NCBI GenBank assembly: GCA_049966395.1 | Contig: JBMFUT010000005.1 | Span: forward strand, 12,212-23,037 | Reading direction: 5' to 3' | Source: Candidatus Micrarchaeia archaeon | Lineage (GTDB): Archaea > Micrarchaeota > Micrarchaeia > Micrarchaeales > CABMGC01 | DNA length: 10,826 nucleotides | Position numbers: made by a program | In this document: positions 1 to 10,826 of the stretch, in pieces | How positions within the stretch are numbered: the stretch's first letter is position 1 | Layout: each line of letters starts with the position of its first letter

Positions 1-3000
1 TTGGCGTGCATTTAGAACGCCGAATATCAATGCAAATACAAATGTTGCCAAAATGATGCGCAACGCAAATTCAAATTTTTTCCCTGTCATACAATCCTAC
101 TCAGCATTGAGAGAAGGTCTATCTTCTCCCCTATAGCCCTTGAAAAATCAATTATAAAAATATCTGTTATGACGAAATTTATGAAAGGTATGAGGAACAA
201 TCCAAGCCCCACTATTCCTATGTATATCATGAACCATTCAACAGAGGCATAGGCGAGTATGGCAGACACCAAGCCTGCCACCGTTGCAGCGCCAAAGCTA
301 AAGAATGCGGCTATTATTGATATTACTATCGATATTACGTCTGCAATTAGCGTAGGGGCAAATTGGCCGTATGCATAAGTGAGGGCGTTGTCTATGAAGC
401 CGTAGGTTATTGCAACAAGCATTGGATAGACAAATCCCAAGCCTATGGCAAACGCTATTGCGGCTCCGCCGAATGTTCTGGTAACGCCGAACATCCTCGC
501 TATGAGCCCTATTGCCATGAAAACTGAGAAGAAAAGCAGGGAAGTGCTTATTAGCAGAAGCTGCACCTGATTGAGCACTACGCCCATTGCCAGACCGTTG
601 AGTATCGTACCCATCGACTTTGACATCAGCAATGGTATTATTTCCAGAGCTCCAGATATTCCGAAGCCATTCAAACCTGGTATGAAATTTATCGCGAAGT
701 CCACATTTGGCACGAATGCGAATATTATCGCTATTGCAAACATGTAGTTGTTGGCAACGTCTATGGCATCGTTGTTGAATGTGTAGACATCACATAACGC
801 AATTCCATAGAGTGTGCCAGTAGAGCCGCAGTTGCCAGGTATTAAGCCTACGCTGTTGAGTGCCGGCGCTGGGTTAACGTTGCACAATAGCGTGCTGAAT
901 GCACCGAATATCGATATAAGCACGAGCGAGAGCAGTATGGCATAAATCTGGTAGCGCGTCCAGTTCTTTATATCGGTGCGACCCATGAGCGGGCTTAGCA
1001 CATAGATTATGCCAAGTATTCCTATTACTGCGATTGCTACTGCTGAAACTGCAGGAAACCACGCTGTGTATGGCGATGTAAGAAAGCCTTTTACGCTGCT
1101 TACACAGCTGCTCTGCAGAAGAAATATTGTATTTATCATCATATCAGCTTTTGGAATATGCTCCCTCCTCTGCCCCTAAACGCTGGAGCGCCGAGAAGCT
1201 GGGCAAATGCCTCCAGCGAATCGTAGGCGATTATGAAAGCTATTGAAATGCCTATGAGTGCAAATGAGTACGACGCTACCATAGCCCCTACAAAGCCACC
1301 TATCATAAGATTGAATATAGAAAATCCGAAGCTTGTAAATAGTGATGCCACCCCGCCAAAGAAAGATATCGCCCCCGTCAGTGCGTTGTTGACGTTTATT
1401 GAAATTAGGGAGAAAGGATACACGAGTGCAGGGAAGATTATGTAGAAAGATATGAACAGGGCGAGAAATGCGCCGCCTGCGGCGCGTGTCCAAGGGAATG
1501 CCCTGAGAATTACGCCTAGGTAGAGAAAGATTGGAAATAGGAAGTATATTATGAAAGTGAGGAATACCATCAGCAACGTGAGCACGTATAGTGTAATGCT
1601 CACAAAGAACAAGCTAGAGAAAACTATTGATATTGGGGTCATGCCATTGAGTGGCATCATCGATATGCCAAAGTTGTTTGGCATGATGTTCAGGGAGAGG
1701 CCTGAAACTGCATTCAAAAGTTCTAGCTGTATAAGGCCCCCGATGGCGTTGCCTAGGAATGTATAGAAATAGCCGGCGAAGTTGTTGCATATTGATGTGT
1801 AGAATTCCAGAGTGCTTGAAGGCATTACTAATGGGGATATTGTTATTGAAGATGTGCTGGCGGTGCTTAATGAAGACATCCCGAAATTCGCAATCTGCAT
1901 TACGAAAACTATGCCATTGAATGCTATGGCAGTACTGCCGATAATAGTGGCTATTATGAGTATGTTGGCAGCCTGCTCTGCTATTTCCCTCTTAACGTAG
2001 TTGGTGATGGAGTCTATCCTCATTGAATAGCCTATCGCATATGCAATCCCCATGACGCTAAGCACAGCCAGTATTATCAGCAGGGCGATGTCAAGCATTC
2101 CAGTGTAAGTAGAGCTGTCAGTAATGTATTGGGCGTTGCCATTGCCCATTTGCGAGGGGATGCTATAAAGATTGGAGCACAACTGCGCCTTGGAAACGTT
2201 TACTAGCAGCACTGCTAAGAAGAATGTGAGGAGTGCAATGCGTTTGTAATCCATCCTTACACCAGATTTCCTATTCCGAGGAGGTTAGTGTCGCCTCCGA
2301 ACAGTTGTGAGAGTCCTTTTAGCGCAGCCAGAGCTATCAGAATGTTGAGCACAGGTATTATGAAACCTGTAACATCCATCACTCCATAGACGTTTATTAT
2401 GTTTGGAATCATCTTTGTAACTTCTGATGGCGTGCATGCAGTGTTCACCGAAGGTATTGAGCTTACAAATGCAAAGGATAGCACCTGGGCGAATATTTCG
2501 TACAAAGTATAAGGAGTCAAGTAAGGCCATGCAAAACCCACTTCTGCAGAAAGTATGTTTGGCTGCCAGCAGTTATAGTTGTTTGCAACCCAGTCGACTC
2601 TTGGGAATACGTAGAAATTCAGCGTATTGGAGCCGTATACTATCTTCTGGCCGCTGAATGTAGTTTCATTTATAACAAGCACCGGAAGGTTGCTAGCTCC
2701 TATAGGTGAGGAAGCTGCAGCACCGCCGCTGAGCGCGGCATATTCTATCAGATATATTAGAGGGAATACGCCAAACGCAATTATTGCTATTGCCATGAGC
2801 AGGCCCCCGACTTTCCTCGTTAGGAACGTCGATCTTAGTATTATGCCAGCCGCAAGCAAGTAAGGCCACGCGTAAAGTATCATTATTATCATTACCAGCT
2901 GCAGGACAAAAGACTCGAAGGTTATGTATGCGACAGATTCCAAAGGCTTGGTGACCTGCTTTATCATGTCGTACCCAGCAAGGGGAACATATGATATTTT

Positions 3001-9000: not shown

Positions 9001-10826
9001 TGGCACCATGCTGAATATTGGAACTAATTTTTTCTCGTTTAAGAATGCGAAAAGAAGCACCATCAAGAGCGCAGATATAGCAAACATTGTCGTGAGGGAA
9101 GGAATTGTAACATTGTAGAGCTGCAGCAGCGGGTATCCGAATAGCGAGGATGGCAAAGGCAGCAGCAGTTTTCCTATGGGGGAGAACACGTCACGGAAAT
9201 ATGCCGTCGGGCTCGAGGCTATGAAATAGCCGTTTATCAATGCAAACACGAATATGGCGCCAAGCAGGTCGTATGCGCCGCGCCTGATGCCTTTGTTTGT
9301 GAAAGAGTATGTTATGAGTAACAGCACTGGGAGCCACAGCTCTTCCTGTATAGAAGCCGCAATGCCAAGCATTAGCCACGAATACTTGCTATCTATAGAG
9401 GCATATGCTATAAGTATCAGCGCAAGCATGAGGAATGTCTGCGTTGAGGACACTATCGCAATGGCAAAAAGCAGAAATATTATCACGCTATATCTTGGCC
9501 TGGCTATGTGCTTCTTGTCAAGAAGCAGCGCTATTGTAAGCAGGAGTATGAAAATAAATACGCCGGCTTGAATGCTCATTTCGGTAGAAAGATTTTTCAT
9601 TGTGGGTGGGAGAAGCAAATAGAAAGGCAGAAAAGATAGCATGTAAAGCGCAGGGTAGTTTATTGTGCCTATTATGTCGTTGTTTGTGGTCGGAGTATAG
9701 CTCATGTTAAGCATGTTATCGTAGACCTGCTGCGAGAAAGAAATCGCATATGGATTTGTGCCGTTTAGGAATGCCTTTGTGCTTAGGAAGCATATGTAGG
9801 CCTCGTCGTCAGGAAAGAAGTGGAAGGCGTATTCAGCAAAATAGTACAGCGATATTATCAATATAGCTGCAAAAATCAATATCAGCGCAACTTTTGTGTA
9901 CTCCTTGCCCGCTCTCAAAAGGTAAGCCCCGAACATCATGCAGAAGAGTAGTGGAAGAAACAGTATTATGTACTTACCCAGCAAAGTTCCGAGCGTAACT
10001 AATGATAGTACTTCGCCTGACCTTACAACAGGCAACATTAAAATAGGCAATAAGAAGAAAAAAACCAAAACCGATAGAGCCACAATCATTGGCATGTCGT
10101 ACTTCTTTGATGCACGGTCTTTCTGGTTTTCAAACATTCTCATTGACGCTATCGCAATAAACGAGATAGCTATAGGTATGCCACTTAATGAAGGGATATA
10201 AGAAAGGTTACCGCACTGCGCCCCAATGAACATGATAAATAAGAAGGCTGACACGAAGAAGATGCTATCGTGGCTAAGTTGCATGATGATAATTAAGAGG
10301 AATACAAAATAAAAAGGTTAGTTTGCCGCCACACATACGGCGGCAAACGAAATTTTTCGGCTTACCCGTAGCTTCATATTCCTTGTATTAAGCCTACGAG
10401 GTAAGGGGCAATCAATACTAGGATCAATCCCACTATTGAACCTATGATCATACCCATTGCCCAGCCCTGCATGTTTGCCTTTATCTGTCCTGCTGCAGGC
10501 AGGAAATGCGCTGCGGCGTAGAGGACGCCTCCTACCATGAAGAGTGCTATGGCGAACACGCCGATTACAGTCTGCACTATTGATACTATGCTCTGGAATA
10601 CAGAACTGAGCAACGATGCCGCTTGAGCAAACGCTAGAGAACTTATCTGTGACACTAAAAGCAGTGAAACCAGCAGTTTCAGATAATTTATTTTCATGTA
10701 TACACCAATGTCGCATTTTAATATATTGCTATTGATTTAAATAGCTTTCGCATAAGTCTATGTAATAGTAGAGAACAAGCTCTCCACGCTGAAATTATAA
10801 CTTACTCTGGACTTGGATTGTAGCGT

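What a model noticed while it worked through the whole genome (the two positions that open the first line are those of the whole stretch)
1..10697. Two chromosomal type-IV-secretion-derived (Ced/Ted-like) loci, one with six tandem VirB6-like genes
Two loci of unnamed genes (C5:3729-22908, g00260-g00277; C2:61473-72544, g00159-g00170) share the same parts: a small VirB2-like pilin, polytopic VirB6-like membrane proteins (one in C2; six diverged tandem copies g00268-g00273 in C5), a bitopic protein (g161/g266/g267) and VirB4/HerA-type ATPases (g162, g166, g169; g265). I read them as domesticated conjugation-type machines like the crenarchaeal Ced/Ted DNA importers, here in an ultrasmall symbiont, a candidate channel for taking DNA or other macromolecules from its host. 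New would be a third, DPANN family of archaeal T4SS-derived systems and a six-fold expansion of its pore subunit.
Evidence so far: Pfam at relaxed cut-off: T4SS_pilin PF18895 on g00159 (E 9e-5) and g00277 (E 5e-5); g00166 AAA_22/DUF87. pfam.tsv: DUF87+P-loop_TraG on g00265, TrwB_AAD_bind+DUF87 on g00169, DUF87 on g00162. PDB sequence search: g00265 residues 48-320 match the VirB4 C-terminal domain 4ag5 (E 5e-8) besides HerA. phmmer within the proteome: g160 hits g271 (7e-7), g268 (6e-5), g270, g273 (5e-4), g272 (0.02); g268-g271 6e-9; g269 only weakly (g268 0.009); g266-g267 3e-9, g266-g161 6e-8. Hydropathy: 6-8 TM segments in g160 and g268-g273. AlphaFold model of g160 with 42 sequences (pLDDT 80, pTM 0.71, call 115): best hit in two independent searches is TrwI/VirB6 of plasmid R388 (Foldseek ranks 1, 2, 4, 10, E 0.12 The finding spans contig positions 3729 to 22908; this window holds only 12212 to 22908 of it. 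[...]
(Added by a program. Inside this text positions count along the whole contig: contig position 12,212 is position 1 of the stretch shown here. "Call 12" and the like, gene names such as g00115 and contig names such as C1 are that model's own, and its searches are not shown. The text may have been shortened before it was handed on; [...] marks where a part breaks off. The agent that wrote the report below was given it as the finding of a first reader that could run no searches.)

Follow-up and report, generated by a model that had tools for sequence, protein, structure and literature searches.

The report
Conserved secretion-like machine in Micrarchaeota
This window is most of a gene cluster, kept in the same order across a whole phylum of tiny symbiotic archaea, that looks like a stripped-down relative of the bacterial DNA-transfer (type IV secretion) machine and may be how these cells exchange large molecules with their hosts.

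Summary
The window carries nine intact minus-strand genes. They are a VirB2-like pilin (g277), two GT-C-like membrane proteins (g276, g275), a six-helix membrane protein (g274) and five of six diverged tandem paralogs (g273-g269). The sixth paralog, g268, begins at window base 11.

Four separate lines tie the cluster to type IV secretion:
- Pilin family: TrbC/VirB2 in 14 of 36 members, T4SS_pilin in 9 of 36.
- A model of g270 has R388 TrwI/VirB6 as its top fold match (Z 10.1, Foldseek E 0.15).
- New here: the "bitopic" proteins g266/g267 carry a VirB4 N-terminal-domain fold (Z 10.8, Foldseek probability 0.96).
- g265 is a VirB4/CedB/HerA-type ATPase domain.

Also new: the whole operon is collinear in Micrarchaeota. 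All six paralogs are present and in order in 52 of 62 loci with enough flank. The paralog family is found in 176 of 201 genomes of the phylum. It was not found in viral contigs, and no Pfam-recognisable integrase or relaxase lies in the locus. I read it as an old, vertically inherited chromosomal machine, not a mobile element.

Weak points: there is no sequence-level link to VirB6, the fold scores are modest, and cargo and direction are unknown.

Verdict: a new variant of the archaeal Ced/Ted-type systems. It parallels the Patescibacteria T4SS and the tandem VirB6 paralogs of Rickettsiales.

The parts
1..11 (-). First 11 bases of g268, the sixth VirB6-like paralog. The rest lies upstream of the window (C5 11137-12222) and contains an assembly gap of N.
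   Evidence: The g268 ortholog family is related to the other five at hhalign probability 97.2-99.4%.
87..1142 (-). g269, 351 aa. VirB6-like polytopic paralog, the most diverged together with g272.
   Evidence: hhalign probability 96.0-99.2% to the other five families. Orthologs in 69 of 76 related loci. Carries the motif R-x4-TR-x2-GG at residue 216.
1139..2254 (-). g270, 371 aa. VirB6-like polytopic paralog, and the one modelled here.
   Evidence: AF2 model: pLDDT 80.1, pTM 0.74. Top fold match TrwI/VirB6 by three routes: Foldseek 8rt9_F E 0.15, probability 0.77; VIA-wide 7o3v_F Z 9.8, rmsd 6.2, 249 aligned of 261; pdb_via 8rt9_F Z 10.1, rmsd 5.6, 227 of 272.
2257..3657 (-). g271, 466 aa. 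VirB6-like paralog with a large inserted extracytoplasmic region containing nearly invariant Cys residues.
   Evidence: 67 database relatives. The named ones are mostly Micrarchaeota MAGs, with one labelled Marsarchaeota and one Aquilonibacter. Alignment A1. Orthologs in 75 of 76 loci.
3661..4860 (-). g272, 399 aa. VirB6-like paralog that lacks the GG motif. Its N-terminal hairpin is pilin-like.
   Evidence: hhalign probability 96.0-98.8% to the other paralog families. Residues 40-84 match the pilin family at 83.3%, E 8.6e-6. No motif found.
4869..6149 (-). g273, 426 aa. VirB6-like paralog.
   Evidence: hhalign probability 99.8% to the g270 family. Orthologs in 70 of 76 loci.
6200..6931 (-). 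g274, 243 aa. Conserved six-helix membrane protein of the YciC/UPF0259/DUF7847 type. Role unknown.
   Evidence: Orthologs in 46 of 76 loci. Mean column identity 51%. Atlas structure matches TM 0.66-0.77 to YciC, DUF7847 and GPDPase_memb clusters. No consistent Pfam family.
6968..8392 (-). g275, 474 aa. Polytopic protein with a weak PMT_2 (GT-C) hit. A sporadic accessory insertion in the operon.
   Evidence: PMT_2 E 0.0057. Orthologs in 0 of 76 related loci. Found in 2 of 90 other genomes of the order. No paralog in the genome.
8401..10284 (-). g276, 627 aa. GT-C-fold glycosyltransferase-like membrane protein (GT87/ALG3/MptA-like) with a C-terminal extracytoplasmic domain rich in N-x-S/T.
   Evidence: Atlas structure row 5 is GT87, TM 0.51, and meets that service's bar for a name. 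Rows 6-8 are ALG3, GT87 and MptA. D160 and E161 are invariant in 32 sequences. Pfam GT87 is found in only 1 of 32 members. 13 sequons. Orthologs in 32 of 76 loci.
10305..10348 (-). 12-bp GC-rich hairpin followed by a T-rich tract, directly after the pilin gene. A terminator or attenuator-like signal.
   Evidence: By my own criteria, a similar hairpin followed by a run of five or more T lies after 13 of 37 pilin orthologs, against 1 of 70 at the g273/g272 junction. That control is imperfect because it lies in coding sequence.
10374..10697 (-). g277, 107 aa. VirB2-type pilin: signal peptide, then two hydrophobic helices joined by a conserved loop.
   Evidence: T4SS_pilin E 4.7e-5, below the cut-off. 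In the family alignment, TrbC/VirB2 matches 14 of 36 members (best 9.7e-7) and T4SS_pilin 9 of 36 (best 9.6e-7). Alignment A3. Paralog g159.
10717..10750 (-). AT-rich promoter-like stretch upstream of g277, with TATTTAAA at 10743-10736 and ATATATTAAAA at about 10727-10717.
   Evidence: Read by eye. This is an inference from the known archaeal TATA/BRE consensus (recalled). No transcript data are available.

Best explanation
The window is the promoter-proximal two thirds of an operon of about 19 kb and about 17 genes. I read it as a chromosomal membrane machine of Micrarchaeota derived from type IV secretion.

Gene order (transcribed right to left in window coordinates):
- pilin g277, followed by a terminator-like hairpin
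- variable GT-C glycosyltransferase-like genes g276 and g275
- membrane protein g274
- six anciently diverged VirB6-like polytopic subunits, g273 to g268
- two paralogous proteins, g267 and g266, each made of a two-helix membrane hairpin plus a VirB4 N-terminal-domain fold
- the VirB4/CedB-type ATPase domain g265
- small proteins g264 and g263
- a coiled-coil protein with a winged helix, g261
- a large sequon-rich surface protein, g260

Proposed mechanism (inferred):
- The ATPase ring is tethered to the membrane through g266/g267. Together these act as a split VirB3-VirB4.
- The ring sits under a hetero-oligomeric channel built from the six VirB6-like paralogs.
- It uses ATP to pull pilin out of the membrane into a VirB2-type tube, or to drive a polymer through the channel, or both.

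Function. I judge the most likely role to be contact-dependent transfer of nucleic acid or another macromolecule between the symbiont and a partner cell, with import more likely than export.

What is shown: gene content, paralogy, fold and family resemblances, and phylum-wide collinear conservation.
What is inferred: assembly, pilus formation, cargo and direction.
For: 1. Pilin. g277 has a signal peptide and two hydrophobic helices. The two commonest Pfam families among the 36 family members are both VirB2-type: TrbC 14 of 36, T4SS_pilin 9 of 36.

2. VirB6-like channel.
- The g270 model (pLDDT 80.1) has TrwI/VirB6 as rank 1 of 48,161 chains: Z 9.8, 249 aligned of 261.
- In the second look at Foldseek's 457 best chains, ranks 1-3 are TrwI/VirB6 (Z 10.1, 9.9, 9.8), rank 4 is DotA of the Dot/Icm T4SS (Z 7.9), and the first unrelated chain scores 7.6.
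- Foldseek rank 1 is also TrwI/VirB6 (E 0.15, probability 0.77).
- The N-terminal roughly 100 residues of the paralogs align collinearly with the pilin. g272 scores 83.3% and g269 36.6%. The same relation is described for CedA/CedA1 and VirB6/VirB2 (passages of PMC9905601).

3. VirB4 N-terminal domain.
- For the g266 model (pLDDT 80.1), 8 of the top 10 Foldseek rows are TrwK/VirB4 (best E 0.046, probability 0.93-0.96).
- VIA-wide rank 1 is 7o42_A: Z 8.8, rmsd 3.1, 164 aligned.
- pdb_via gives 8rtd_g: Z 10.8, rmsd 3.1, 151 aligned, model residues 70-272 on TrwK 221-382.
- TrwK residues 178-382 are the Pfam signature domain CagE_TrbE_VirB.
- g267 and g161 are homologs of g266 (hhalign 97.5%; phmmer).

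4. ATPase. The best NCBIfam models on g265 are CedD 4.6e-19, CedB 1.3e-18, the CD1110 VirB4-like ATPase 5.3e-17 and TraC 3.3e-15. The VirB4 C-terminal domain 4ag5 covers residues 57-335. Pfam reported no HAS-barrel (HerA N-terminal domain) family at E up to 0.05.

5. Old and vertical.
- 76 related loci were fetched, nearly all labelled Micrarchaeota, including records titled as whole chromosomes.
- They share the same gene order.
- 52 of 62 loci with enough flank hold all six paralogs, and all 52 are collinear.
- The g270 profile matches 176 of 201 genomes of the phylum, and 132 of 152 that are at least 90% complete. E-values fall off from own family to order to class.
- ATPase orthologs are 71-94% identical.
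- Flanking genes are housekeeping: topoisomerase VI B, MoxR, Rpb4, DUF655.

6. Analogy. A chromosomal T4SS with VirB4, a separate VirB4-N-terminal-like protein (TrsD), VirB3, VirB6 and a VirB2-like pilin is widespread in Patescibacteria. It is reported essential for epibiotic growth in one strain (passages of PMC12102498).
Against: - No sequence-level link to VirB6. Profiles of the g271 and g270 families find nothing in PDB sequences at E up to 10. hhalign against a TrwI-clade alignment (TrwI plus 44 of the 120 listed relatives) gives probability 0.4% or less for all six families. Pfam and NCBIfam give no family on g269-g273.
- Fold scores are modest. All Foldseek E-values are above 0.001. Z values of 8.8-10.8 lie in the range the tool warns can arise for helical proteins by common arrangement.
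- The window's own pilin scores below Pfam's cut-off. The pilin profile finds no solved pilin.
- The ATPase domain alone does not separate VirB4 from HerA. PADLOC HerA scores 2.1e-22. PDB HerA 8wiv scores 5.1e-12, better than VirB4, though over a shorter stretch. No phylogeny was made.
- None of the 136 relatives of g266 among 1.84 billion representatives is fused to an ATPase, so no fusion supports the split-VirB4 reading.
- GT-C-like genes and a sequon-rich surface protein in the same operon leave room for a role in surface glycoprotein biogenesis.
- No experimental or expression data exist for this genome.
Confidence: 0.72

Rival explanations
1. The machine is as described but only builds a surface fibre, a VirB2-type pilus with g260 as adhesin or anchor and the glycosyltransferases decorating it. 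It serves attachment to the host, and nothing is translocated.
For: The pilin gene comes first and is followed by a terminator-like hairpin, as expected for an abundant structural subunit. GT-C-like genes lie in the operon. g260 has 23 sequons and two membrane segments. No relaxase, nuclease or coupling protein was recognised in the C5 locus.
Against: In the described relatives (conjugation, Ced/Ted) the same parts move a substrate. A six-fold, anciently fixed diversification of the channel subunit is hard to explain by fibre assembly alone. The ATPase is conserved at 71-94% identity.
Confidence: 0.12
2. The cluster is not derived from type IV secretion. It is a lineage-specific membrane complex, for example for envelope or surface-glycan biogenesis or another transport task, driven by a HerA/FtsK-type ATPase. 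The VirB2, VirB6 and VirB4-N-terminal resemblances are chance or convergent.
For: There is no sequence-level link to VirB6. Foldseek E-values are 0.046-0.15. Helical membrane proteins give middling Z values by chance, as the tool notes. HerA models score as well as the VirB4 and CedB models on g265. GT-C-like genes sit inside the operon.
Against: Four different gene products each have a part of the same machine as their best match. The pilin family matches two VirB2-type Pfam families. VirB6 is rank 1 of 48,161 chains and nearly the whole chain is covered. The VirB4 N-terminal domain is rank 1 by two programs, at rmsd about 3.1 over 151-164 residues of a mixed alpha/beta fold. The VirB4 C-terminal domain covers g265 residues 57-335. 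The same set recurs in the second locus.
Confidence: 0.1
3. The locus is an integrated conjugative plasmid or element, or its decaying remnant, acquired by this genome.
For: The parts are those of conjugation machines. One gene, g275, is a sporadic insertion. A second, smaller set of the same parts lies on contig C2.
Against: The order is collinear in 52 of 62 loci from different species. The family is present in 176 of 201 genomes of the phylum, with similarity falling with taxonomic distance. Pfam recognised no integrase, relaxase or replication gene in or beside the locus. No tRNA lies in the window. G+C is 0.42-0.47, like the rest of the genome. No relative was found in the viral contig collection. 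All window genes are intact and of ortholog length.
Confidence: 0.04
4. The locus is a HerA-based anti-virus defence system with membrane effectors.
For: g265 matches PADLOC HerA models (best 2.1e-22) and DndH. g263 weakly matches a 4TM effector model at 8.8e-6.
Against: 14 of the 16 proteins scanned match no PADLOC model. Near-universal, collinear, vertical conservation is unlike the patchy spread of defence islands. The pilin and the VirB4 N-terminal fold are unexplained by this reading.
Confidence: 0.02

Closest known systems
Ced (Sulfolobales) and Ted (Thermoproteales) DNA-import systems: CedA/TedA (VirB6-like), CedA1/TedC (VirB2-like pilin), CedB/CedD/TedB (VirB4-like). Passages read in PMC9905601 and PMC11868833.
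   Same: - An archaeal, chromosomal, minimal set of VirB2, VirB6 and VirB4 parts, with no outer-membrane parts and no relaxase.
- The pilin has a signal-peptidase-I type leader, as TedC does. g277 reads ...LAFA/QA by eye and TedC reads AVA/QA.
- The N-terminus of the channel protein is pilin-like.
- The ATPases carry a membrane segment plus a partial VirB4 N-terminal domain (CedB, CedD).
- Channel paralogs occur (CedE).
- The best NCBIfam models on g265 are CedD and CedB.
   Different: - It is not a member. CedB and CedD score 67 and 68.5 bits against cut-offs of 700 and 600.
- There are six fixed channel paralogs instead of one or two.
- The membrane hairpin plus N-terminal domain is a separate, duplicated protein instead of being fused to the ATPase.
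- Extra conserved genes are present (g274, g264, g263, g261, g260, GT-C-like genes).
- The host lineage is an ultrasmall obligate symbiont.
- DNA import is not shown.
Chromosomal T4SS of Patescibacteria (MPF-FATA-derived). Passages read in PMC12102498.
   Same: A phylum-wide chromosomal system in ultrasmall episymbionts. It has VirB4, a separate protein resembling the VirB4 N-terminus (TrsD), VirB3, VirB6 and a VirB2-like pilin. It is not tied to a mobile element. The paper reports it as essential for epibiotic growth in one strain.
   Different: It is bacterial and recognisable with standard T4SS profiles. Its VirB4 is full length. No six-fold VirB6 array is described. Homology between TrsD and g266 was not tested here.
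Rickettsiales vir homolog (rvh) T4SS with five tandem VirB6 paralogs. Passages read in PMC2653234.
   Same: A tandem array of highly diverged VirB6-like genes. The paper gives about 80% amino-acid divergence; here global identity is 23-30%. The duplications are ancestral, each copy is kept as its own ortholog group, and the lineage is an obligate symbiont with a reduced genome.
   Different: It is a bacterial diderm system with VirB8-11 and VirD4. Its VirB6 copies are much larger (674-1154 aa) and carry a recognisable TrbL/VirB6 Pfam domain. It arose independently.
R388 TrwI/VirB6 and TrwK/VirB4 (PDB 7o3v, 8rt9, 8rtd, 7o42).
   Same: They are the best structural matches of the g270 and g266 models.
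   Different: Identity in the structural alignments is 6-12%. No profile-level similarity was found. In R388 the VirB4 N-terminal domain is part of one 823-aa chain, and VirB6 is a single gene.
VirB4/TraG-like ATPase domain of the giant SPEARE-type proteins of Nanohaloarchaeota. Passages read in PMC10266531.
   Same: A T4SS-type ATPase proposed to act in host interaction in another DPANN phylum.
   Different: The architecture is quite different: the ATPase is fused to a giant Ig-repeat surface protein. No pilin or VirB6-like genes are described there.

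Membership tests
Type IV secretion-derived machines (minimal VirB2/VirB4/VirB6 core) | VirB4-type P-loop ATPase domain | tested here: met
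   g265: DUF87 3.5e-18, AAA_10 6.8e-14, P-loop_TraG 3.6e-10. NCBIfam CedD, CedB, the CD1110 VirB4-like ATPase, TraC and VirB4_CagE at 4.6e-19 to 8.4e-11. PDB 4ag5 VirB4 C-terminal domain E 5e-8 over residues 57-335. Caveat: HerA models score similarly, and no phylogeny was made.
Type IV secretion-derived machines (minimal VirB2/VirB4/VirB6 core) | VirB4 N-terminal signature domain (Pfam CagE_TrbE_VirB) | tested here: met
   Met at fold level only, and on separate proteins. The g266 model matches TrwK residues 221-382 with Z 10.8, rmsd 3.1, 151 aligned. Foldseek probability reaches 0.96, with E 0.046 at best. VIA-wide rank 1 of 48,161 chains. TrwK 178-382 is CagE_TrbE_VirB. There is no sequence-level hit.
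Type IV secretion-derived machines (minimal VirB2/VirB4/VirB6 core) | VirB6/TrbL-type polytopic channel subunit | tested here: inconclusive
   Fold: TrwI/VirB6 is rank 1 (Z 9.8-10.1, 219-249 aligned, rmsd 5.6-6.2) and Foldseek rank 1 (E 0.15). DotA is the next full-length match. Sequence: no Pfam TrbL hit, no PDB hit, and hhalign to the TrwI clade is 0.4% or less.
Type IV secretion-derived machines (minimal VirB2/VirB4/VirB6 core) | VirB2/TrbC-type pilin (leader plus two hydrophobic helices) | tested here: met
   Met at family level: TrbC 14 of 36 members (best 9.7e-7) and T4SS_pilin 9 of 36 (best 9.6e-7). The architecture is seen in alignment A3. The window's own g277 scores 23.8 bits, below the 26.6-bit cut-off.
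Ced system of Sulfolobales | CedB and CedD equivalog models (NCBIfam NF041017, NF053655) over their cut-offs | tested here: not met
   g265 scores 67.0 bits against a cut-off of 700 for CedB, and 68.5 against 600 for CedD. In the whole genome no match exceeds the CedB cut-off, while the Sulfolobus control does.
Ced system of Sulfolobales | CedA and CedA1 homologs | not testable with these tools
NCBIfam gave no family on g268-g273 at E up to 0.1, but I do not know whether that library holds a CedA model.
Conjugative plasmid or integrative conjugative element | Relaxase, coupling protein, integrase or replication genes with the transfer genes, and patchy mobile distribution | tested here: not met
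   Pfam recognised none in the C5 locus or its flanks. Conservation is collinear and phylum-wide. No relative was found in viral contigs. Archaeal conjugative elements lack known relaxases (stated in PMC11868833), so the absence of a relaxase is weak evidence by itself.
GT-C glycosyltransferases (g276, g275) | Polytopic GT-C fold with an acidic motif in the first outer loop | tested here: inconclusive
   g276: the Atlas structure search gives GT87 at TM 0.51, meeting that service's bar for a name, with ALG3 and MptA rows below. D160 and E161 are invariant. Pfam GT87 is found in only 1 of 32 members. g275: PMT_2 E 0.0057, below the cut-off.
HerA-based defence systems (PADLOC) | HerA together with a cognate effector such as Sir2, DUF4297 or a nuclease | tested here: not met
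   Only g265 (HerA and DndH models) and, weakly, g263 match. 14 of 16 proteins have no PADLOC family.

The most novel reading that the evidence does not exclude
This operon is the symbiont-side apparatus of the Micrarchaeota-host cell bridge. In this reading the six VirB6-like paralogs form a hetero-hexameric ring matched one-to-one to a hexameric split VirB4 ATPase. Together with the pilin and the g260 surface protein they build, or dock, the roughly 7-nm intercellular tube and the 21-nm barrel-shaped platform seen by cryo-tomography in the ARM-1/Metallosphaera co-culture (PMC11329633, passages read). Through it the symbiont would import host nucleic acids or other polymers that it cannot make. 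That would make it the archaeal counterpart of the Patescibacteria T4SS.
Probability: 0.2. Interest if true: 0.92.

Novelty: new variant of a known kind. Interest (0 to 1): 0.78.

Why it matters
How DPANN archaea draw material from their hosts is an open question. Cryo-tomography of a cultured Micrarchaeon shows tubes and a docking platform at the contact site. Their proteins are unidentified: the authors write that the molecular identity is hard to confirm (PMC11329633).

A concrete gene set of about 17 genes, kept in order across the phylum and resembling a stripped type IV secretion machine, gives that question testable candidates in organisms that can already be co-cultured.

It would also extend the archaeal Ced/Ted-type systems beyond Thermoproteota. 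It shows a second, independent case, after Rickettsiales, of a fixed multi-paralog VirB6 array in a reduced symbiont. And it adds a split form of VirB4 (membrane hairpin plus N-terminal domain on one protein, ATPase on another) that bears on how VirB3, VirB4, TrsD, CedB and CedD are related.

Tried and rejected
Sequence-level tests that found nothing:
- Profiles of the g271, g270, pilin and g266 families against PDB sequences gave no relevant match. Searches returned none. One search returned only a calcium-channel gamma subunit at E 2.1. One search returned only coiled-coil noise.
- hhalign of each paralog family against a TrwI-clade alignment (TrwI plus 44 of the 120 listed relatives, all 51% identical or more, so a narrow profile) gave probability 0.4% or less.
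- NCBIfam, PADLOC and PHROGs gave nothing on the membrane proteins.

Search for fused forms: 0 of 136 relatives of g266 among 1.84 billion representatives carry an ATPase. The one long hit, 833 aa with 8 short stretches, looks like coiled-coil noise.

Mobile-element reading: no relative of the g270 family in the viral contig collection, and no tRNA in the window.

Expression: no RNA holder is listed for the window. Only three DNA runs of one hot-spring study hold small shares, 0.16 or less.

- Complex prediction (g265 with the soluble domain of g266) was not available. The docking of the two halves is untested.

Other dead ends:
- A Pfam survey of the g260 family was dropped, because only 4 of 42 orthologs were full length within the fetched flanks.
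- I could not obtain CedA or TedA sequences, so no direct comparison with them was made.
- The sigma-70 promoter scan is not meaningful for an archaeon and was used only for its hairpin list.

Literature. I found no description of this system. The searches were:
- CedA + VirB6 + archaea
- DPANN + VirB4
- DPANN + type IV secretion + conjugati
- Micrarchaeota, pilin, HerA
- Micrarchaeota with T4SS terms (no listed paper held 'Micrarchaeota')
- Microcaldus + gene cluster
- Micrarchaeota + ARM-1
- Ted system, Ced system, DPANN
- The ARM-1 cultivation paper PMC8784108 has none of 'gene cluster', 'secretion', 'pili', 'HerA' or 'membrane protein' in its main text.
Subscription journals and unsearched supplements may hold more.

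Full report
WHAT IS IN THE WINDOW

The window is G000:C5:12212-23037 of a 693,655-base, 34-contig genome estimated 89% complete. All long open frames lie on the minus strand and are tightly packed, with overlaps of 4 bases or gaps of 2 to 89 bases.

In transcription order the genes are:
- g277, 10697-10374, 107 aa
- g276, 10284-8401, 627 aa
- g275, 8392-6968, 474 aa
- g274, 6931-6200, 243 aa
- g273, 6149-4869, 426 aa
- g272, 4860-3661, 399 aa
- g271, 3657-2257, 466 aa
- g270, 2254-1139, 371 aa
- g269, 1142-87, 351 aa

The same strand continues outside the window:
- g268, whose first 11 bases are window 11-1 and whose N-terminus is broken by a run of N
- g267 and g266
- the ATPase g265
- g264 (98 aa) and g263 (144 aa, a zinc-ribbon-like membrane protein)
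- g261 (coiled coil plus C-terminal winged-helix-like hits)
- a 50-aa frame
- g260 (797 aa, two membrane segments, 23 N-x-S/T sequons)

The flanks are housekeeping genes: topoisomerase VI B on one side, and MoxR ATPase, Rpb4 and DUF655 on the other. The window holds no tRNA. G+C is 0.42-0.47, like the other contigs at 0.435-0.50.

CHECK OF THE OBSERVATION

- T4SS_pilin on g277: E 4.7e-5 at 23.8 bits, below the 26.6-bit cut-off. PMT_2 on g275: E 0.0057.
- g265: DUF87, AAA_10 and P-loop_TraG.
- g159: T4SS_pilin 8.8e-5. The three ATPases of the C2 locus are also as reported.
- 4ag5 (VirB4 C-terminal domain): E 5e-8.
- The phmmer pattern of paralogy reproduces.

I then tested the paralogy with ortholog alignments of each gene, up to 60 sequences per family taken from 76 related loci.
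- All 15 pairs among the six families score hhalign probability 96.0-99.8% (E 4.2e-9 to 5.5e-28).
- The 24 pairs with the four control membrane families g274, g276, g266 and g267 score 4.9% or less.
- g160 of the second locus matches the g270 profile at E 6.6e-21.
- Six of the seven proteins (all except g272) share the motif R-x4-[TL]R-x2-GG after a transmembrane helix. In the g270 orthologs R251, P254, T256, R257, G260 and G261 are invariant.
- Global identity among the paralogs of this genome is 23-30%.

Five complete paralogs are in the window and the sixth lies at its edge.

WHAT THE PARTS ARE

Pilin.
- g277 and 34 orthologs (of 41 hits; those of 100-170 aa were kept), together with g159, align as a signal peptide, a conserved stretch, and two hydrophobic helices joined by the loop LYAxAHxMPxxGxxKGxLQGW.
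- Scanned one by one, 14 of the 36 match Pfam TrbC/VirB2 (best 9.7e-7) and 9 of 36 match T4SS_pilin (best 9.6e-7). No other family reaches more than 3 members.
- The profile finds no solved pilin by sequence.

Channel subunits.
- g270, modelled with 45 orthologs (of 73 hits), gives pLDDT 80.1 and pTM 0.74 with seven long helices.
- Foldseek against the PDB ranks TrwI/VirB6 of plasmid R388 first (8rt9_F, E 0.15, probability 0.77, TM 0.27/0.33), and again at ranks 18 and 24.
- The independent all-against-all VIA search of 48,161 chains also ranks it first (7o3v_F, Z 9.8, rmsd 6.2, 249 aligned of 261). Apart from one poor superposition (rank 5, 113 residues, rmsd 20.3), the next rows are hairpins of 54-75 residues. 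The next full-length match is DotA of the Dot/Icm system (Z 7.9, 277 aligned).
- A second look at Foldseek's list gives Z 10.1, 9.9 and 9.8 for three TrwI entries, 7.9 for DotA and 7.6 for the first unrelated chain.
- Against this, no sequence method links the family to VirB6. Pfam and NCBIfam give nothing. PDB profile searches give nothing. hhalign against a TrwI-clade alignment gives 0.4% or less. The Z values also lie in the range the tool itself calls common for helical proteins.
- I therefore treat the VirB6 link as fold-level and contextual, not proven homology.
- The N-terminal roughly 100 residues of the paralogs align collinearly to the pilin family: g272 83.3% (E 8.6e-6), g269 36.6%, the others 14.8% or less. 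Beltran et al. describe the same relation for CedA/CedA1 and VirB6/VirB2 (passages).

The 'bitopic' proteins.
- g266, g267 and g161 each have an N-terminal hydrophobic stretch followed by about 200 soluble residues. The g266 model resolves that stretch into helices.
- I predicted that they are the missing N-terminal part of a VirB4-like ATPase, for two reasons. g161 weakly matched CedB residues 113-174 (E 0.015). A CedB match also ran from the end of g161 into g162 in one frame across a single TGA.
- The g266 model, built from 46 sequences (pLDDT 80.1, pTM 0.63), bears this out.
- Eight of the top ten Foldseek rows are TrwK/VirB4 (best E 0.046, probabilities 0.72-0.96, about 189 columns, rmsd about 6).
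- VIA-wide rank 1 of 48,161 is TrwK (Z 8.8, rmsd 3.1, 164 aligned, model 68-272). Every other row covers only a 50-60 residue hairpin.
- The second look gives Z 10.8 (8rtd_g, rmsd 3.1, 151 aligned, model 70-272 on TrwK 221-382), and four more TrwK entries at Z 8.0-9.0.
- TrwK residues 178-382 are the Pfam signature domain CagE_TrbE_VirB.
- So g266, and by homology g267 (hhalign 97.5%) and g161, is a membrane hairpin plus part of the VirB4 N-terminal domain, while g265 is the C-terminal ATPase domain.
- This mirrors CedB and CedD (membrane segment, partial VirB4 N-terminal domain, ATPase; PMC11868833). It also mirrors the separate VirB4-N-terminal-like protein TrsD of Patescibacteria and pGO1-type systems (PMC12102498).
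- There is no sequence-level support. None of the 136 relatives found among 1.84 billion representatives is fused to an ATPase.

ATPase.
- The best NCBIfam models on g265 are CedD 4.6e-19, CedB 1.3e-18, a VirB4-like conjugal ATPase 5.3e-17, TraC 3.3e-15 and then HerA 1.5e-14. All are far below their cut-offs.
- PDB HerA entries score better than VirB4 but over shorter stretches. PADLOC HerA models score 2.1e-22.
- The ATPase domain alone does not decide between VirB4 and HerA. The N-terminal-domain fold of g266 does point to VirB4/CedB.
- g264 is homologous to the C-terminal tail of g265 (5.2e-8).

Accessory genes in the window.
- g276 resembles GT-C glycosyltransferases. The Atlas structure rows are GT87 (TM 0.51, meeting that service's bar for a name), ALG3 and MptA. 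D160 and E161 are invariant in 32 sequences. Pfam GT87 is found in only 1 of 32 members.
- g275 has only the weak PMT_2 hit and is a sporadic insertion. It has orthologs in 0 of 76 related loci, and it was found in 2 of 90 other genomes of the order.
- g274 is a well conserved six-helix protein of the YciC/DUF7847 type, of unknown role.

Signals.
- Directly after the pilin gene lies a 12-bp hairpin with 7 G-C pairs followed by a T-rich tract (window 10348-10305, minus strand).
- By my criteria (45-nt fold of -12 kcal/mol or lower, followed by a run of five or more T), 13 of 37 pilin orthologs have such a signal, against 1 of 70 at the g273/g272 junction. That control is imperfect because it lies in coding sequence.
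- This fits an abundant pilin transcript with read-through into the machinery genes.
- AT-rich TATA-like boxes lie 20-46 bases upstream of the g277 start (read by eye).

CONSERVATION: AN OLD CHROMOSOMAL OPERON, NOT A MOBILE ELEMENT

- g271 has 67 database relatives. The named ones are almost all Micrarchaeota MAGs.
- A scan of one genome per species found 76 loci. Nearly all are labelled Micrarchaeota, and a few carry other labels. Some records are titled as whole chromosomes of 0.85 and 1.21 Mb.
- Mapping this genome's proteins onto them shows the same order almost everywhere: 277-276-274-273-272-271-270-269-268-267-266-265-264-x-261-260.
- Loci with an ortholog, of 76 (many loci are cut by contig ends, so these are lower bounds):
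  - g268 71, g269 69, g270 72, g271 75, g272 72, g273 70
  - g266 60, g267 59, g265 56
  - g274 46, g261 42, g260 42, g277 35, g276 32, g275 0
- Of the 62 loci with enough flank around the g271 ortholog, 52 hold all six paralogs and all 52 are collinear. The other 10 show four or five, some probably lost to my crude ORF caller.
- In a sample of the phylum the g270 profile matches 176 of 201 genomes, and 132 of 152 that are at least 90% complete.
  - By family: own family 34 of 35, sister family 55 of 56, f3 14 of 14, f8 37 of 37.
  - It was not found in some families among those searched: f9 0 of 6, f14 0 of 4, f10 2 of 10.
  - Best E-values fall from about 1e-124 to 1e-65 in the own family, to 1e-87 to 1e-12 in the order, to 1e-30 to 1e-9 in the rest of the class. 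That is what vertical descent predicts.
  - The tallies include two genomes flagged unpublished, G197 and G029.
- ATPase orthologs are 71-94% identical, and 1,088 proteins score E 1e-30 or better among the 8,000 candidates scored.
- No relative was found in viral contigs. Pfam recognised no integrase, relaxase or replication gene.

HOW IT MOST LIKELY WORKS

Shown: the parts list, their family and fold resemblances, and their fixed order.

Inferred:
- g265 forms a ring held at the membrane by g266/g267, acting as a split VirB3-VirB4.
- Above it the six paralogs form a hetero-oligomeric channel. Six different subunits fixed for the whole history of the phylum argue for distinct, non-interchangeable positions.
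- The machine extracts pilin into a VirB2-type tube, or drives a polymer through the channel, or both.
- Glycosyltransferases and g260 would decorate and tip or anchor the structure.

Cargo and direction are unknown. I favour contact-dependent import of nucleic acid or another macromolecule, for four reasons:
- The described archaeal relatives import DNA.
- The second locus sits with Nre, a HerA-like ATPase and a zinc-hook-like gene, much as Ted loci sit with HerA and Rad50.
- The organism is an ultrasmall symbiont.
- In Patescibacteria the analogous system is reported essential for host-dependent growth, and a 2026 preprint reports uptake of host RNA with possible T4SS pili at the interface (10.64898/2026.06.21.733656, passages).

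A LEAD ON EXPRESSION

The proteome table of the cultured Micrarchaeon ARM-1 (supplementary table 1 of PMC11329633) lists consecutive gene products:
- BCS90994, annotated HerA, 56.5 kDa, 33 peptides
- BCS90995, 12.6 kDa
- BCS90996, 15.1 kDa
- BCS90997, 28.3 kDa, 21 peptides
- BCS90999, 90.9 kDa, 21 peptides
- BCS90998 is not listed.

The masses of g265, g264, g263, g261, the 50-aa frame and g260 are 56.8, 11.0, 16.6, 27.4, 6.2 and 88.7 kDa. The match is by order and mass only. I could not compare sequences, so this is a lead, not evidence. In ARM-1 the genes upstream of BCS90994 are glycosyltransferases and agmatinase, so the operon may be split there.

The same paper describes intercellular tubes (outer diameter 6.7 nm, lumen 4.4 nm) that the authors assign to the host. 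It also describes a 21-nm barrel-shaped platform in the symbiont envelope, of unknown composition.

COMPARISON AND NOVELTY

The system works like Ced/Ted but is not a member of Ced, because the equivalog models fail by an order of magnitude. Its nearest analogues are:
- the Patescibacteria chromosomal T4SS: same lifestyle, and the same parts including a separate VirB4-N-terminal-like protein
- the Rickettsiales rvh system: five tandem, ancestral, highly diverged VirB6 paralogs

Features that I did not find described: the combination in an archaeal DPANN phylum, six fixed channel paralogs, a duplicated stand-alone hairpin-plus-N-terminal-domain protein, and the conserved extra genes. The searches are listed under Tried and rejected. 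I rate it a new variant of a known kind.

WHAT WAS NOT POSSIBLE

- No RNA run is listed.
- No CedA or TedA sequences could be obtained.
- No ATPase phylogeny was made.

Noticed in passing
L003:5920-7725 (G000 contig C2 62919-64724): g161 (membrane hairpin plus VirB4-N-terminal-like domain) and g162 (ATPase) lie in the same reading frame, separated only by one TGA. A CedB model match (positions 116-315, E 3.1e-16) runs across the stop. This could be a recent split of a fused CedB-like gene, a sequencing error or read-through.
   Followed up: partly
window 10374-10697, and alignment A3 of orthologs: Most pilin orthologs carry two nearly invariant cysteines, one just after the leader and one in a short C-terminal tail. 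g277 of this genome (and g159) lacks both the first cysteine and the whole tail. Losing both together would fit a disulfide joining the two ends of the mature pilin.
   Followed up: no
L001:7509-7805 (-) and L001:7814-9319 (-): The small gene g264 (98 aa) is homologous to the C-terminal tail of the ATPase g265 (phmmer 5.2e-8). In 43 related loci it showed up as a second '265' hit next to the ATPase. It is a small helical domain of unknown role, present both fused and free.
   Followed up: partly
window 6968-8392: g275 sits inside an otherwise fixed operon. It has no ortholog in any of the 76 related loci and was found in only 2 of 90 other genomes of the order, one at 36% identity. It looks like a sporadically gained accessory GT-C-like gene.
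   Followed up: yes
G000 contig C2 57580-58083 and 58222-58734 (L003:581-1084 and 1223-1735): Two tandem genes of 167 and 170 aa share an identical N-terminal 40 residues, with a hydrophobic stretch after a short charged leader. By eye this looks like the class III signal of archaeal type IV pilins; that label is recalled and not tested. They lie 3 kb upstream of the second T4SS-like locus. In Sulfolobales, type IV (Ups) pili are needed for Ced-mediated exchange.
   Followed up: no
L038, L052, L032, L033, L055, L060, L071 (record titles); P0035 and P0189: Contigs carrying the complete Micrarchaeota-type operon are titled 'bacterium', 'Candidatus Saccharimonadales bacterium' or 'Candidatus Marsarchaeota'. 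Proteins on a 21,880-base contig are named as from 'Candidatus Aquilonibacter'. These are probably binning or labelling errors in public MAGs.
   Followed up: no
L001 about 12110-12215 (C5), just upstream of window base 1: A run of N (assembly gap) interrupts the N-terminus of g268, so its start and first roughly 35 residues are unknown. Contig C5 holds 200 N in all.
   Followed up: no
P0413: One distant member of the g161/g266 family (234 aa, E 1.9e-6 to the g266 profile) is labelled as from a Candidatus Aenigmatarchaeota MAG. This is the only hint that the family reaches another DPANN phylum, and the label was not verified.
   Followed up: no
window 10318-10716 (-): A 132-aa open frame overlaps the pilin gene in another frame. 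It has no support and is taken as spurious.
   Followed up: no
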